Notes: generated by a model from the sequence alone, not told the origin. A stretch of 64,000 nucleotides of DNA from Escherichia coli (GCF_024298765.1 NZ_CP101210.1), one strand, 5' to 3'. Counted from the stretch's first letter, positions 16,824-46,594 are shown. A program made the numbers and translations.

Positions 16824-17744
16824 ATGAGCACAAGAGTATGGGTACTTGGTGATGCGGTTGTTGATTTATTACCCGAAAGCCAGGGGAGACTACTACAGTG
16901 TCCTGGCGGGGCGCCTGCTAATGTTGCAGTCGGTATCGCAAGGCTGGGGGGGAAAAGTGCCTTTATTGGCAAAGTTGGCGATGATCCTTTCGGTCGCTTT
17001 ATGTATCAGACACTGAGTACAGAAAATGTTGATACACGTTATATGTCTCTTGATCCTCAACATCGCACCTCAATTGTGGCTGTAGGACTTGATGAGCAAG
17101 GAGAAAGAAACTTTACCTTTATGGTACGCCCAAGTGCCGATCTTTTTTTACAACCTGATGGCCTTCCTGCATTTGGGCCGGGTGAATGGCTCCATCTTTG
17201 TTCCATTGCGCTCAGTGCAGAACCTTCCCGAAGTACCGCATTTCTGGCTATGGAGAAAATACGTCAGGCTGGCGGAAACATCAGTTTTGATCCCAATATC
17301 CGCAGCGATCTCTGGCAGAGTGAAGCGCTATTAAGGAAATACCTTGATCGCGCACTTTCGCTGGCGAATATCGCTAAATTGTCCGAAGAAGAGTTGCTAT
17401 TCATCAGTGGCGAAAGCCAGGTTCAGCAAGGCGCATATTCATTAGTACAACGTTATTCGTTGACTTTATTGCTTATCACACAAGGAAAAAATGGCGTACT
17501 TGTGTATTTTCAGGGGCAGTTTATCCACTATCCCGCCAAACCTGTTTCTGTCGTCGATACGACCGGGGCAGGAGATGCTTTTGTCGCTGGATTACTTGCC
17601 GGTCTGGCTGATTCTGGAATACCAACAAATACCAGACAGCTTGAACGAATCATTGTACAAGCTCAGATTTGTGGTGCTCTGGCGACCACGGCTAAAGGCG
17701 CGATGACCGCCTTACCCCGACAACACGATCTCCCTTCACAATAG
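16824..17744 (+). CDS. scrK: fructokinase
   Basis: 306-aa PfkB-family ORF with GAGDAF motif; first gene of scr regulon. Confidence 0.85.
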   Translation: MSTRVWVLGDAVVDLLPESQGRLLQCPGGAPANVAVGIARLGGKSAFIGKVGDDPFGRFMYQTLSTENVDTRYMSLDPQHRTSIVAVGLDEQGERNFTFMVRPSADLFLQPDGLPAFGPGEWLHLCSIALSAEPSRSTAFLAMEKIRQAGGNISFDPNIRSDLWQSEALLRKYLDRALSLANIAKLSEEELLFISGESQVQQGAYSLVQRYSLTLLLITQGKNGVLVYFQGQFIHYPAKPVSVVDTTGAGDAFVAGLLAGLADSGIPTNTRQLERIIVQAQICGALATTAKGAMTALPRQHDLPSQ

Positions 17745-17911
17745 TGATCCTGCTGTTGTATCTGTAACCCGATTTGTCGTGCCTGTCACATTTACTAAAT
17801 CGGTTTAGCGAAAATAATTGCTTTGGCTAAAAAGTCAGCTTTATTATCAACACCTAAACCGGTTTAGCATTTTAGCAATTTTTATAATTCTCTGATGGGA
17901 CGCGACAAATT

Positions 17912-19429
17912 ATGTATAAAAAAACAACTTTGGCAGTGTTAATTGCTTTGCTGACCGGTGCTACAACGGTACATGCGCAAACGGATATTAGCAGTATCGA
18001 ATCTCGACTGGCGGCGTTGGAACAACGTTTAAAAAATGCGGAATCCCGCGCCCAGGCGGCAGAAGCAAGGGCCAAAACAGCTGAATTACAGGTTCAGAAA
18101 CTGGCTGAAACACAACAACAAAATCAGCTAACAACTCAAGAAGTAGCACAGAGAACAGTTCAGCTCGAACAGAAATCCGCAGAAAACAGTGGTTTTGAGT
18201 TTCATGGCTATGCCCGTTCCGGGTTACTGATGAATGATGCCGCTTCCAGTAGCAAAAGTGGGCCGTATCTGACTCCCGCAGGTGAAACTGGTGGAGCTGT
18301 TGGCCGTCTGGGAAATGAAGCCGATACCTATGTCGAGTTAAATGTAGAACATAAACAAACACTGGATAACGGTGCGACCACACGCTTTAAAGCAATGTTG
18401 GCTGACGGACAAAGAGATTACAACGACTGGACTGGCGGCTCCAGTAACCTGAATATCCGACAGGCTTTTGCCGAACTGGGCGCATTACCAAGTTTTACCG
18501 GAGCATTCAAAGACAGTACTGTCTGGGCTGGTAAACGCTTTGATCGCGACAATTTTGATATTCACTGGTTAGACTCCGATGTCGTATTTTTAGCGGGAAC
18601 GGGCGGCGGTATCTATGACGTAAAATGGAACGATACATTTCGCAGTAACTTTTCTCTCTACGGACGTAATTTCGGCGATCTTGATGATATCGACAATAAC
18701 GTTCAGAATTACATCCTCACCATGAATCATTATGCAGGCCCCTTCCAGTTGATGGTTAGCGGATTACGGGCAAAAGATAATGATGATCGAAAAGATGCCA
18801 ATGGTGATCTCATTCAAACTGATGCTGCAAATACTGGCGTACATGCGTTAGTTGGTCTGCACAATGACACTTTCTATGGCCTGCGTGAAGGGACGGCAAA
18901 AACAGCACTGCTATATGGCCATGGCCTGGGTGCGGAAGTCAAAGGGATTGGCTCCGATGGCGCCCTGCTGTCTGAGGCGAATACCTGGCGCTTCGCATCT
19001 TACGGCACAACACCTCTGGGAAGCGGTTGGTATGTCGCACCAGCAATTCTCGCACAAAGCAGTAAAGATCGTTACGTCAAAGGCGATAGCTACGAATGGG
19101 TGACCTTCAATACACGTCTGATCAAAGAGGTAACACAGAATTTTGCTCTGGCCTTTGAGGGTAGCTATCAATATATGGATCTGAAACCAAAGGGGTATCA
19201 AAACCACAACGCCGTAAACGGCAGTTTCTATAAACTCACCTTTGCTCCAACTCTAAAAGCTAACGATATCAATAATTTCTTTAGCCGTCCGGAGCTTCGC
19301 CTGTTTGCCACCTGGATGGACTGGAGCAGCAAACTTGATGATTTTGCCAGCAATGACGCTTTCGGCAGCAGTGGTTTCAATACTGGCGGAGAGTGGAATT
19401 TTGGTGTCCAAATGGAAACCTGGTTTTAA
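17912..19429 (+). CDS. scrY: sucrose-specific outer membrane porin
   Basis: 505 aa with signal peptide, coiled-coil N-extension and C-terminal W-F; LamB-family maltoporin-like. Confidence 0.85.
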
Positions 19430-19489
19430 TACCAGACAACCTCACAGATGTGAAGTTTTTACTGAAATAACAATGAATTAGAGGGTTAT

Positions 19490-45488: not shown

Positions 45489-45526
45489 AAGACATTCTCC
45501 TTTCTCAGGGATGCCTTACTGTTGAT

Positions 45527-45561
45527 CCGAAACGTTTCGGGTATCAACCAAAACGTTTCGG
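45527..45561 (-). promoter_or_regulatory. putative RafR operator pair (two LacI-type palindromes) in rafA promoter
   Basis: CCGAAACGTTTCGG (45527-45540, perfect) and CCAAAACGTTTCGG (45548-45561) between rafR stop and rafA start. Confidence 0.55.
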
Positions 45562-45583
45562 ATATGTGAGCTGGATAAAAAAA

Positions 45584-46594
45584 TCAGGAGCAAGGAGGAT
45601 GAATCGTCTTTCCCGGATAAAATACCGGGTTCCAGACAACCTGTAGTGGTTTTGATGATGAATCAGTAATTATCTGATATATCATCTCGGAAATCTGGCG
45701 ACCAACGAGGCTTCGTGTTGACTGAATAACTGCAGCCACATCCAGCTCAATAATACTGTCCTGTGGCAAACCATCATATACAACCAGAGATACCGCATCT
45801 TTTCCTGAAAGACGACCGCTCAACTGCAGTGCCATGGCAGCACCATCTCCACTCAGGTCATTGTCAGTAATAATAGCTGTTGGTGGTATCGGTAGTGACA
45901 TTAACTCCATCACGGCCTGATATCCTGCTCGCCGTGTGGGAGAAACCAGCCGCAGCCATGTATCTTCCAGTTCATGCTCATTCAGTGCATCAAGCCATCC
46001 CTGACGTCTTGCAACAACATAGCTATGTGAAGTGTCTTCACTCAACAATGCAATACGTTTATGTCCCAAAGCAATCAGTTTCTGGGTTGCCTGTCCAGTC
46101 CCGGCATGATTATCAAAGTCAAACCACGCACAGGGCAGACCAGATGGTACCCGACCAAGAGCCAGAAATGGAATACCTGCTTTATGAAGGTGTGTGATAC
46201 GGGGATCGTCATCCAGAGTGTGTGCAATGATGAGAGCATCAACCCTGCGACTTTCAACAAGCCGCATATAGCTGTGGCAATCGGCATGCTCATCATCAGC
46301 TATCAGTAGTAAGTCAATATCATGGTGAGCAAGTTCCCGGCTGATGCAACTGACCATATCCATAAAAACACCACTGTTAAATGGCACATCACGTCCAGGA
46401 TAAACCAGACCGACAGCATCGGTTTTACCGGTTTTGAGTCTTCTTGCCTGAGTATTAGGACGGTAACCGCGTCGACGAGCTTCAGCTTCCACCCGTGCAC
46501 GGGTGGAAGCTGACACATCTGCATAGCCTCCAAGAGCCCGACTGACAGTGGTGACAGAAACTCCGAGTGCAGTGGCAATCGCCTTAAGTGACAT
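45584..46594 (-). CDS. rafR: LacI-family raffinose operon repressor
   Basis: 336 aa; HTH MSLKAIATALGVSVTTVSRAL. Confidence 0.8.
   Translation of the reverse strand: MSLKAIATALGVSVTTVSRALGGYADVSASTRARVEAEARRRGYRPNTQARRLKTGKTDAVGLVYPGRDVPFNSGVFMDMVSCISRELAHHDIDLLLIADDEHADCHSYMRLVESRRVDALIIAHTLDDDPRITHLHKAGIPFLALGRVPSGLPCAWFDFDNHAGTGQATQKLIALGHKRIALLSEDTSHSYVVARRQGWLDALNEHELEDTWLRLVSPTRRAGYQAVMELMSLPIPPTAIITDNDLSGDGAAMALQLSGRLSGKDAVSLVVYDGLPQDSIIELDVAAVIQSTRSLVGRQISEMIYQIITDSSSKPLQVVWNPVFYPGKTIHPPCS

What the first reader, a model, noticed from the sequence alone, without database searches (positions are those of the whole stretch)
16824..46594. Sucrose PTS regulon (scrKYABR) and raffinose operon (rafRABDY), both classically plasmid- or CTn-borne, co-resident on one chromosomal island
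Two complete sugar-utilisation modules, each with its own LacI-type repressor, GH32 hydrolase and dedicated outer-membrane glycoporin (scrY, rafY), sit on one tRNA-Phe island next to the P4-type integrase. This predicts a Scr+ Raf+ phenotype linked to ESBL carriage.
Basis: partly seen in the sequence, partly recalled or inferred. Interest (0 to 1): 0.45.

Follow-up and report, generated by a model that had tools for sequence, protein, structure and literature searches.

The report
Sucrose and raffinose operons on tRNA-Phe island
An E. coli chromosomal island at the pheV tRNA gene carries two intact, well-known sugar operons (sucrose and raffinose) with a later-inserted CTX-M-14 resistance gene between them; this is an ordinary, already catalogued kind of mosaic island, not a new system.

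Summary
scrKYABR (16824-23302, + strand) and rafRABDY (39003-46594, - strand) are both full length. Both have operator-like palindromes and lie on one island next to a P4-type integrase and tRNA-Phe, here pheV.

- The scr allele is E. coli's own chromosomal type. It is 99.1% identical to the queE-adjacent locus and occurs in 987 of 5426 complete genomes. Its ScrY is only 77% identical to pUR400 ScrY.
- raf next to this integrase and tRNA-Phe is common: about 270-280 genomes, at pheV, pheU or both.
- IncF plasmid raf copies carry a 760-bp stump of the island integrase, so plasmids probably took raf from such an island.
- No conjugation genes were found, so this is not a CTnscr94-like element.
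- scr sits in this island context in 92 genomes and is contiguous with raf in at least 38.
- The ESBL link is strain-specific. An ISEcp1::IS10-blaCTX-M-14 unit (5-bp duplication TTTGA) lies at this site in only 3 complete genomes, and only one of those also has scr.

A raf island carrying resistance genes was already published for strain Sanji. The Scr+ Raf+ phenotype is predicted, not tested. Interest is low.

The parts
16780..16791 (.). Palindrome TAAATCGATTTA upstream of scrK, a candidate ScrR operator
   Evidence: Read directly from the sequence. It resembles the two scrY-upstream palindromes.
16824..17744 (+). scrK, fructokinase
   Evidence: NF006957 scores 505.8 bits against a cut-off of 450. 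306 aa, with 6 differences from the plasmid copy.
17795..17867 (.). Two 14-bp palindromes upstream of scrY, CTAAATCGGTTTAG (17795-17808) and CTAAACCGGTTTAG (17854-17867); candidate ScrR operators
17912..19429 (+). scrY, sucrose porin with an N-terminal coiled-coil extension
   Evidence: Matches PDB 1A0S at E = 1.8e-226 and 77% identity over the 413-aa barrel.
19490..20860 (+). scrA, sucrose PTS EIIBC with no IIA domain
   Evidence: TIGR01996 scores 649 bits against a cut-off of 559.
20860..22269 (+). scrB, sucrose-6-phosphate hydrolase (GH32)
   Evidence: TIGR01322 scores 550 bits.
22295..23302 (+). scrR, LacI/Cra-type repressor
   Evidence: TIGR02417 scores 462 bits against a cut-off of 390.
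23854..24327 (-). H-NS-family paralogue, specific to the scr variant of the island
   Evidence: PGAP annotation of the identical DNA in ECJXMCRH7.
24646..25383 (+). Outer-membrane protein (OmpW/Adr-like); DNA shared with the non-scr island variant starts at 24566
25843..30626 (-). ISEcp1::IS10 - blaCTX-M-14 - IS903-remnant transposition unit, flanked by a 5-bp duplication TTTGA (25838-25842 and 30627-30631). It is inserted about 40 nt into a WYL-type regulator gene.
   Evidence: Junctions compared with the uninterrupted strain 104. Gene families. IS10 spans about 27822-29154.
26715..27590 (-). blaCTX-M-14
   Evidence: NF033089 scores 620.7 bits. PGAP names it CTX-M-14 on identical DNA.
30628..34234 (+). 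5'-truncated WYL regulator, a 359-aa protein and a 523-aa protein; a candidate defence module
   Evidence: PADLOC hits: WYL 2e-22, PDC-M09A 3.5e-22, PDC-M40B 1.3e-42. No Pfam hits.
34887..36560 (+). Island-borne phosphoethanolamine transferase, not an MCR
   Evidence: NF028537 scores 163 bits. All MCR models score far below their cut-offs.
37732..38436 (.). IS1 and IS3-family fragments separating the central module from raf
39003..40397 (-). rafY porin
   Evidence: Pfam Porin_8 'glycoporin RafY' scores 494 bits, full length.
40592..42022 (-). rafD, invertase (GH32)
   Evidence: TIGR01322 scores 460 bits. 476 aa, the same length as the plasmid copy.
42022..43299 (-). rafB, LacY-family oligosaccharide/H+ symporter
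   Evidence: TIGR00882 scores 678 bits. 425 aa from the annotated start.
43362..45488 (-). rafA, alpha-galactosidase (GH36)
   Evidence: Pfam Melibiase plus GH36 N- and C-terminal domains.
45527..45561 (-). Two palindromes, CCGAAACGTTTTGG (45548-45561) and CCGAAACGTTTCGG (45527-45540), flanking a TTGATA -35-like hexamer upstream of rafA; candidate RafR operators O1/O2
45584..46594 (-). rafR, LacI-type repressor
   Evidence: LacI-family hits begin at residue 1-3. 336 aa, with 4 differences from the plasmid copy.
46744..47958 (-). P4-type tyrosine integrase (intP4); PGAP start at 47928. Its 3' 760 bp (46744-47503) are also present on raf plasmids.
48105..48180 (-). tRNA-Phe (GAA). It is pheV, because yqgA (48286-48993) and speC (49325-51520) follow. 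The 23-bp att core is 48105-48127.

Best explanation
The window is E. coli chromosome carrying a mosaic, non-conjugative genomic island of the GI-pheV/pheU kind, integrated at pheV by a P4-type integrase.

The integrase-proximal module is the raffinose operon. By inference from the established functions of these families (own knowledge): RafY lets raffinose through the outer membrane, RafB imports it by proton symport, RafA splits it into galactose and sucrose, and RafD splits the sucrose into glucose and fructose. RafR represses through two palindromic operators around the rafA -35 box.

About 16 kb further in lies the E. coli-type PTS sucrose regulon. ScrY is the porin. ScrA is the EIIBC component and uses the host's EIIA-Glc. 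ScrB hydrolyses sucrose-6-phosphate and ScrK phosphorylates the fructose released. ScrR represses via palindromes upstream of scrK and scrY.

The two modules are independent cassettes brought together by the modular recombination typical of these islands. A sister variant carries a type I restriction-modification module in place of scr.

Later, an ISEcp1::IS10-blaCTX-M-14 unit transposed into a WYL-regulator gene between the modules, leaving a 5-bp duplication.

Shown here: gene content, gene integrity, operator-like sites, junctions, and distribution in public genomes. Inferred: expression, the Scr+ Raf+ phenotype, and any functional help of ScrK to raffinose catabolism.
For: Gene families and integrity. 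Operator-like palindromes. pheV context and integrase.

The same island is 99.97-100% identical over window 1410-48228 in ECJXMCRH7. There it sits at pheU, runs for about 61 kb to an imperfect 23-bp attR, and has no transfer genes annotated. The restriction-modification variant occurs in strains 104 and CM2 and is identical to the right of 24727 except for one SNP.

Counts in 5426 complete genomes: this scr allele in 987; scr in the island context in 92; scr contiguous with rafY in 38; raf-int-tRNA-Phe in about 270-280, of which 188 are at pheV.

The ISEcp1 unit and its duplication. The same junction occurs in 3 genomes.

Literature: the cloned 6.7-kb scr locus of SCU-147 makes a scr-negative natural isolate Suc+ (PMC11251922); isolates from that same collection (SCU-176, SCU-124) carry a locus 99.0-99.1% identical to the window's. 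A 69.2-kb chromosomal insertion with rafRABDY, a resistance cluster, relE/parE and yeeUV is described in strain Sanji and six other genomes (PMC6392093), several of which are among my hits. GI-pheV is described as modular, with intP4 the only conserved gene (PMC11537424).
Against: No phenotype or expression data exist. An H-NS paralogue lies beside scr, so silencing cannot be excluded. Some scr+ isolates grow poorly on sucrose (PMC11251922). The far (attR) end of the island is outside the window; window 1-214 is still accessory DNA and the IS5 at 215-1409 has no target duplication, so the island's size and integrity in this particular strain are unknown. I could not align against the pRSD2, pUR400 or CTnscr94 nucleotide records themselves.
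Confidence: 0.85

Rival explanations
1. One reading: both modules arrived from plasmids or from a CTnscr94-like conjugative transposon that integrated at tRNA-Phe, so the island is a decayed ICE or plasmid integrant.
For: Copies 99.0% identical exist on conjugative IncF plasmids: scr on 22 plasmids and raf on 164. CTnscr94 is known to insert at pheV and pheU (own knowledge, Hochhut et al. 1997; the paper is not held).
Against: The scr allele is equally close (99.1%) to the native queE-adjacent locus carried by hundreds of chromosomes and is only 77% identical in ScrY to pUR400. Plasmid raf segments end inside a truncated copy of the island's integrase, at the same breakpoint (47503) in many plasmids. 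In pIP1206 an annotated IS2 transposase gene begins about 90 bp beyond that breakpoint. A truncated integrase on the plasmid and an intact one beside its tRNA site on the chromosome is what island-to-plasmid transfer predicts. No relaxase or T4SS genes are annotated in the full 61-kb island of ECJXMCRH7.
Confidence: 0.08
2. The co-residence is adaptive rather than incidental. scr and raf are kept together because soy-based poultry feed supplies sucrose, raffinose and stachyose, and ScrK supplies the fructokinase that the raf operon lacks.
For: About one third of the 60 listed genomes with scr in this island context come from poultry. A GWAS found rafY significantly associated with chicken isolates, along with genes named as a cobalamin adenosyltransferase, a WYL-domain protein, hsdR, intS, radC and a porin-family protein (PMC12987596). 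Genes with matching names lie on this island type: six of them in strain 104's island and radC in the distal module seen in ECJXMCRH7. The raf operon encodes no kinase.
Against: Most raf islands lack scr: about 270-280 genomes have raf, 92 have scr in the island and 38 have them contiguous. Human isolates are as frequent in the lists. E. coli has other routes for fructose (own knowledge: Mak, and FruA after efflux). No statistics were computed here.
Confidence: 0.25
3. The modules are present but phenotypically silent in this strain, because of H-NS silencing or polar effects, so the predicted Scr+ Raf+ phenotype would not be seen.
For: The region has a lower GC content than the flanking core genome. 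An H-NS paralogue is adjacent. Some scr+ isolates grow slowly on sucrose (PMC11251922).
Against: All genes, ribosome-binding contexts and operator/promoter-like elements are intact. Most isolates that carry the chromosomal E. coli-type scr locus are Suc+, 20 of 24 (PMC11251922).
Confidence: 0.1

Closest known systems
Chromosomal rafRABDY island of E. coli strain Sanji (69.2-kb insertion; PMC6392093) and its relatives HB-Coli0, CRE1540, H8, MRY15-117 and 14EC017
   Same: The same rafR-integrase-tRNA-Phe junction (99.7-100% identical). It also carries a resistance-gene insertion, and the relE/parE and yeeUV modules are seen in the ECJXMCRH7 counterpart.
   Different: The Sanji island is at pheU, and the paper lists no scr operon among its contents. 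[quoted passage not shown]
E. coli native scr locus next to queE (SCU-147 type; PMC11251922)
   Same: The same five genes in the same order, 99.1% nucleotide identity over 6.6 kb. The cloned SCU-147 locus was shown experimentally to confer Suc+ in that paper.
   Different: The location differs: here scr is inside a tRNA-Phe island rather than at queE/CRISPR2. Homology to the queE copy stops at 16707 and 23303.
pUR400 scr regulon (Salmonella plasmid) and CTnscr94
   Same: The same gene set and, by inference, the same mechanism. ScrY aligns end to end with the solved pUR400 porin 1A0S. CTnscr94 uses the same tRNA-Phe attachment sites (own knowledge).
   Different: ScrY identity is only 77%. No conjugation genes are present.
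Plasmid raf operon (pRSD2; modern IncF plasmids such as pIP1206)
   Same: rafRABDY have identical lengths and are 99.0% identical in DNA to pIP1206. Two operator palindromes flank the rafA -35 box, as described for pRSD2 (own knowledge, Aslanidis and Schmitt 1990).
   Different: The location is chromosomal. The plasmids carry only a 760-bp stump of the integrase. pRSD2 itself could not be aligned, and 306 matching plasmid records are only 90-95% identical and cover less than 80% of the operon query.
GI-pheV family (PMC11537424)
   Same: A P4-type integrase next to pheV, modular and IS-rich content, a yee/CP4-44-like distal module, and an imperfect 23-bp attR in the ECJXMCRH7 copy.
   Different: The words raffinose, sucrose, raf, sugar, carbohydrate and metabolism do not occur in that paper's main text. 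The intP4 allele class was not determined here.

Membership tests
PTS sucrose regulon (scrKYABR) | Five genes, scrK then scrYABR, in that order: fructokinase, porin, EIIBC, sucrose-6-phosphate hydrolase and a LacI/Cra-type repressor | tested here: met
   All are above the curated NCBIfam cut-offs except the porin, which matches PDB 1A0S.
PTS sucrose regulon (scrKYABR) | EIIBC lacks a IIA domain and depends on host EIIA-Glc | tested here: met
   The 456-aa protein matches the IIBC-only model TIGR01996 end to end. Dependence on Crr is inferred from established knowledge.
PTS sucrose regulon (scrKYABR) | ScrR operators upstream of scrK and scrY | tested here: inconclusive
   Palindromes are present, but they were not compared with published footprints.
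PTS sucrose regulon (scrKYABR) | Confers growth on sucrose | not testable with these tools
   The cloned SCU-147 scr locus confers Suc+ (PMC11251922). Loci in isolates of the same collection are 99.0-99.1% identical to the window's.
Raffinose operon (rafRABD + rafY) | Repressor, GH36 alpha-galactosidase, LacY-family permease, GH32 invertase and RafY porin, in that order | tested here: met
   Lengths are identical to the pIP1206 genes.
Raffinose operon (rafRABD + rafY) | Twin operators flanking the -35 box of the rafA promoter | tested here: met
   CCGAAACGTTTTGG / TTGATA / CCGAAACGTTTCGG at 45527-45561. Identity with the published O1/O2 rests on my own knowledge.
Raffinose operon (rafRABD + rafY) | Sequence identity to the pRSD2 reference | not tested
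   The pRSD2 record is not in any searchable collection. The cluster look-up gave no pRSD2 accession, and Ulmke 1997 is not held.
GI-pheV / GI-pheU (P4-integrase tRNA-Phe island) | intP4-type integrase immediately 3' of tRNA-Phe | tested here: met
   The flanking genes yqgA and speC identify pheV.
GI-pheV / GI-pheU (P4-integrase tRNA-Phe island) | Direct repeat (attR) of the tRNA 3' end at the far end of the island | tested here: inconclusive
   No second copy occurs in the window with up to 3 mismatches, because the far end lies outside it. The near-identical island in ECJXMCRH7 ends with TTTCATTCCGAGTCCGGGCACCA.
CTnscr94-type ICE | Conjugative transfer genes (relaxase, T4SS) on the element | tested here: not met
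   None appear among the ORFs and annotations of window 1410-48228 or in the complete 61-kb ECJXMCRH7 island.
CTnscr94-type ICE | scr genes of the pUR400/CTnscr94 lineage | tested here: not met
   ScrY is 77% identical to pUR400 ScrY. The CTnscr94 sequence itself was not available.
ISEcp1 one-ended transposition unit | ISEcp1 IRL at one end, a captured bla gene downstream, and a 5-bp target duplication | tested here: met
   IRL ...GTAGAATCTAGG ends at 30626. TTTGA is duplicated at both ends when compared with the empty site in strain 104.

The most novel reading that the evidence does not exclude
The roughly 61-kb raf/scr island is still an active integrase-driven unit, or is exchanged wholesale by recombination between its pheV and pheU copies. 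On this reading it moved after acquiring blaCTX-M-14, making it a chromosomal, plasmid-independent vehicle that spreads an ESBL gene together with feed-sugar catabolism in poultry E. coli. The same island lineage would also be the source of the raf region now found on many IncF plasmids.

Evidence compatible with this: the identical island, with the identical ISEcp1 insertion and duplication, sits at pheV in the window and at pheU in ECJXMCRH7. The same insertion also occurs in the restriction-modification variant at pheU in CM2. Some genomes carry raf-int at both loci. The plasmids carry the integrase stump.
Probability: 0.25. Interest if true: 0.4.

Novelty: new member of a known kind. Interest (0 to 1): 0.15.

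Why it matters
The practical value is modest. It shows that a CTX-M-14 gene has become chromosomal inside a sugar-utilisation island that is frequent in poultry-associated E. coli. There it can persist without plasmids and may be co-selected by soy-oligosaccharide-rich feed.

It also corrects a textbook framing. In today's genomes the raf operon is as much an island module as a plasmid one, and the integrase stump suggests that IncF plasmids captured it from an island. The scr copy here is E. coli's own allele, relocated into an island.

None of this changes what is known about how either pathway works.

Tried and rejected
- I searched the window for a second copy of the 23-bp tRNA-Phe 3' end (attR) with up to 3 mismatches and found none. 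The island continues past the window's left edge. Window 1-214 is the end of an accessory phosphoethanolamine-transferase gene, and the IS5 at 215-1409 has no target duplication.
- I tried to read Ulmke 1997 and Hochhut 1997 for reference features of RafY and CTnscr94. Neither is held.
- Literature searches for pheV + raffinose + sucrose found nothing specific. The GI-pheV paper's main text does not mention raffinose, sucrose, raf, sugar, carbohydrate or metabolism.
- I considered that ECJXMCRH7's pheU location was a pheU/pheV inversion artefact and rejected this for that strain: both flanks there are pheU-type, yjdC on one side and cadC on the other. For the window's own strain, inversion, site-specific integration and homologous replacement cannot be told apart.
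- I looked for a recombination breakpoint next to the CTX-M insertion. The scr and restriction-modification variants are identical from 24727 onward except for one SNP at 37936, which is too little to decide.
- Pfam found nothing in the two genes annotated 'hypothetical' and 'cobalamin adenosyltransferase'. That PGAP name is unsupported.
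Full report
OBSERVATION

The ORF map and curated family models confirm both modules at exactly the stated coordinates.
- Plus strand: scrK (16824-17744; fructokinase NF006957, 506 bits against a cut-off of 450), scrY (17912-19429), scrA (19490-20860; sucrose EIIBC TIGR01996, 649 bits), scrB (20860-22269; TIGR01322, 550 bits) and scrR (22295-23302; TIGR02417, 462 bits).
- Minus strand: rafR (45584-46594), rafA (43362-45488; GH36 domains), rafB (42022-43299; oligosaccharide MFS TIGR00882, 678 bits), rafD (40592-42022; TIGR01322, 460 bits) and rafY (39003-40397; Pfam Porin_8 'glycoporin RafY', 494 bits).

ScrY matches the solved sucrose porin 1A0S at E = 1.8e-226. ScrY and RafY resemble each other only in the N-terminal coiled-coil extension; their barrels show no detectable similarity.

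None of the ten genes has an internal stop. Each has the same length as its counterpart on a conjugative IncF plasmid and differs from it by 1-7 residues. PGAP marks none as a pseudogene in a strain with identical DNA.

Regulatory elements are in place.
- Upstream of rafA, two palindromes (CCGAAACGTTTTGG and CCGAAACGTTTCGG) flank a TTGATA hexamer.
- Upstream of scrY are CTAAATCGGTTTAG and CTAAACCGGTTTAG, and upstream of scrK is TAAATCGATTTA.

CONTEXT

The only tRNA in the window is tRNA-Phe at 48105-48180 on the minus strand. Just inside it, 147-177 bp away depending on the start codon used, lies a tyrosine integrase with the P4-type architecture Arm-DNA-bind_3 + central domain + catalytic domain. 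The genes beyond the tRNA are yqgA, speC, nupG, mltC and mutY, so this is pheV of E. coli.

Reading from the integrase inward, the island contains:
- rafRABDY;
- IS1/IS3 fragments;
- a TPR protein;
- a phosphoethanolamine transferase that is not an MCR;
- two genes without Pfam domains that hit candidate-defence families PDC-M40B and PDC-M09A, plus a WYL regulator;
- the resistance insertion;
- an outer-membrane protein and an H-NS paralogue;
- scrRBAYK;
- a regulator, a sugar-phosphate isomerase/RidA/MFS cluster, IS66 fragments and remnants of T6SS baseplate genes.

No second copy of the tRNA 3' end lies in the window, so the island runs off the left edge.

THE ESBL GENE

Comparison with strain 104, which has the uninterrupted site, places a 4784-bp unit at 25843-30626. 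It is bounded by the ISEcp1 left inverted repeat and flanked by a 5-bp duplication, TTTGA. The unit contains:
- ISEcp1, with an intact transposase but split from its right end by an IS10 at about 27822-29154;
- blaCTX-M-14;
- an IS903 remnant.

It sits about 40 nt into the WYL-regulator gene. This is a classic ISEcp1 one-ended transposition, secondary to the island.

The same left junction occurs in only 3 of 5426 complete genomes, all from chickens in China: ECJXMCRH7, CM2 and EC17CM2. CM2 has no scr beside it. 'Scr+ Raf+ linked to ESBL' is therefore true of this clone, not of the island type.

HOW COMMON, AND WHERE FROM

- The scr query matches 987 of 5426 complete genomes at 95% identity or more. 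Nearly all of these are the 6.6-kb locus at 99.1% identity. Stephens and colleagues describe that locus as native to phylogroup B2/F strains, adjacent to queE (PMC11251922). They also showed that the cloned SCU-147 locus is sufficient for a Suc+ phenotype; isolates of their collection appear among my hits at 99.0-99.1%.
- The pUR400 porin is only 77% identical. The scr here is therefore E. coli's own allele relocated into an island, not the Salmonella plasmid or CTn element.
- The scrR-hns-OMP junction that marks the island context is present in 92 genomes. The whole stretch from scr to rafY is contiguous in at least 38.
- raf joined to this integrase and a tRNA-Phe occurs in about 270-280 genomes. 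Of these, 188 are at pheV and the rest at pheU, and some strains (HB-Coli0, 14EC017) have both.
- About a third of the listed genomes with scr in the island context are from poultry.
- A recent GWAS found rafY, a 'cobalamin adenosyltransferase', a WYL protein, hsdR, intS, radC and a porin-family protein associated with chicken isolates (PMC12987596). Genes with matching names lie on this island type: six in strain 104's island and radC in the distal module seen in ECJXMCRH7. Those hits may therefore be one linked locus.

PLASMID VERSUS ISLAND

Copies 99.0% identical exist on IncF plasmids: scr on 22 and raf on 164. The plasmid raf homology does not stop at rafR. It runs on to window position 47503, through the 3' 760 bp of the integrase gene. 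In pIP1206 an annotated IS2 transposase gene begins about 90 bp beyond that endpoint. The same endpoint recurs in many E. coli and Klebsiella plasmids.

An intact integrase beside its tRNA site on chromosomes, and a stump of it on plasmids, is best explained by plasmids having captured raf from such an island.

The plasmid scr homology (16691-23764) also extends further than the queE-locus homology (16707-23303), which matches the island copy.

A further 306 plasmid records match the raf query at only 90-95% identity over less than 80% of its length. Which lineage pRSD2 belongs to I could not determine.

THE SAME ISLAND AT TWO tRNA GENES

Window 1410-48228 is 99.97-100% identical to ECJXMCRH7, including the ISEcp1 insertion. 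The only structural difference in that span is an extra IS10 in ECJXMCRH7, with a 9-bp duplication at window 15018-15026.

In ECJXMCRH7, however, the island lies between yjdC-pheU and cadC. It is about 61 kb long and ends with an imperfect attR, TTTCATTCCGAGTCCGGGCACCA. It has yee/cbtA and parDE modules and no transfer genes. CM2, the restriction-modification variant with the same CTX-M insertion, is also at pheU.

So the CTX-M-bearing segment is now found at pheV with scr, at pheU with scr, and at pheU with the restriction-modification module. Three explanations remain open: site-specific integration at either identical tRNA gene, recombination between paralogous islands, or a pheU/pheV inversion in the window's strain. 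The window does not reach the far end, so these cannot be separated. The only informative difference to the right of 24727 is a single SNP at 37936.

MECHANISM

Inferred from established knowledge of these families, not shown here.
- Sucrose enters through ScrY, is phosphorylated during transport by ScrA with the host's EIIA-Glc, and is split by ScrB into glucose-6-phosphate and fructose. ScrK then phosphorylates the fructose. ScrR represses.
- Raffinose enters through RafY and RafB. RafA releases galactose and sucrose, and RafD splits the sucrose. RafR represses at the twin operators.
- The raf operon encodes no hexokinase, so ScrK on the same island could help dispose of the fructose produced. 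This is a plausible but untested synergy.

COMPARISON AND NOVELTY

Every component is known. The island type is known: GI-pheV is described as modular with only intP4 conserved (PMC11537424). A 69.2-kb chromosomal insertion carrying rafRABDY, a resistance cluster, relE/parE and yeeUV has been published for avian strain Sanji and six other genomes (PMC6392093), several of which are among my best hits.

What I did not find described in the held literature:
- scr inside this island (PMC11251922 places the chromosomal E. coli-type scr next to queE and does not describe an island location);
- the scr + raf combination;
- the integrase stump on raf plasmids.

These are incremental points. The element fails the test for a CTnscr94-type ICE, having no transfer genes and a divergent scr lineage.

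VERDICT

The feature is a new member (a module combination) of a well-known kind of island. Interest is 0.15.

Noticed in passing
window 25843-30626 (duplications at 25838-25842 and 30627-30631): An ISEcp1 (itself interrupted by IS10) - blaCTX-M-14 - IS903-remnant unit with a 5-bp duplication TTTGA is inserted about 40 nt into a WYL-type regulator gene. The identical junction occurs in only 3 of 5426 complete E. coli genomes, all from chickens in China.
   Followed up: yes
window 30628-34234: The disrupted WYL regulator precedes two genes with no Pfam domains. One of them PGAP calls 'ATP--cob(I)alamin adenosyltransferase', a name nothing here supports. They hit the PADLOC candidate-defence families PDC-M09A (3.5e-22) and PDC-M40B (1.3e-42). 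The ISEcp1 insertion may derepress or otherwise alter a candidate phage-defence module.
   Followed up: partly
window 46744-47503; L004 (pIP1206) 13700-14610: raf-carrying IncF plasmids of E. coli and Klebsiella retain the 3' 760 bp of the island's P4-type integrase gene next to rafR, with a shared breakpoint. In pIP1206 an IS2 transposase gene starts about 90 bp beyond it. This suggests the plasmid raf region was captured from a tRNA-Phe island.
   Followed up: partly
window 1410-48228 versus L001/L006 (ECJXMCRH7, NZ_CP067342.1 4302605-4363969): The same island, including the same CTX-M insertion, is at pheU in ECJXMCRH7 but at pheV in the window. There it is 61 kb long, with attR TTTCATTCCGAGTCCGGGCACCA lying between the island and cadC. 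ECJXMCRH7 has an extra IS10 with a 9-bp duplication at window 15018-15026. Some genomes (HB-Coli0, 14EC017) carry raf-int at both tRNA-Phe genes.
   Followed up: partly
window 24566-24726: The boundary between the scr variant and the type I restriction-modification variant of the island (strains 104 and CM2) lies at 24566. Twelve SNPs cluster at 24573-24726. After that the variants are identical up to rafR except for one SNP at 37936.
   Followed up: partly
window 34887-36560 and window 1-214: There are two island-borne phosphoethanolamine-transferase genes. The complete one scores far below every MCR cut-off. The 3' end of another lies at the window's left edge, and that sequence is present in about 2400 genomes in up to 4 copies. 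Any role in lipid A or colistin phenotypes is unknown.
   Followed up: no
window 215-1409: A complete IS5 (1195 bp) has different flanking tetranucleotides (TTAA and CTAG), so there is no target duplication. It is absent at this place in ECJXMCRH7, and the DNA to its left does not continue the ECJXMCRH7 island. This implies an IS5-mediated rearrangement or deletion in the source strain.
   Followed up: partly
window 5515-8015: Remnants of type VI secretion baseplate genes tssF and tssG, flagged partial by PGAP on identical DNA, are bordered by IS66-family fragments. This is a decayed T6SS module inside the island.
   Followed up: no
window 23854-24327: An H-NS-family paralogue lies immediately downstream of scrR in the scr variant of the island. 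It could modulate silencing of the horizontally acquired modules.
   Followed up: no
window 12438-15891: A further small putative sugar module lies just upstream of scr: an MFS transporter, a RidA-family protein, a sugar-phosphate isomerase/epimerase and a divergent HTH regulator. Its substrate is unknown.
   Followed up: no
island-wide (L002, strain 104; L006, ECJXMCRH7): Chicken-associated GWAS hits reported in PMC12987596 (rafY, hsdR, 'cobalamin adenosyltransferase', WYL-domain protein, intS, radC, porin-family protein) have the same names as genes on this island type. They may therefore represent a single linked locus rather than independent signals.
   Followed up: partly
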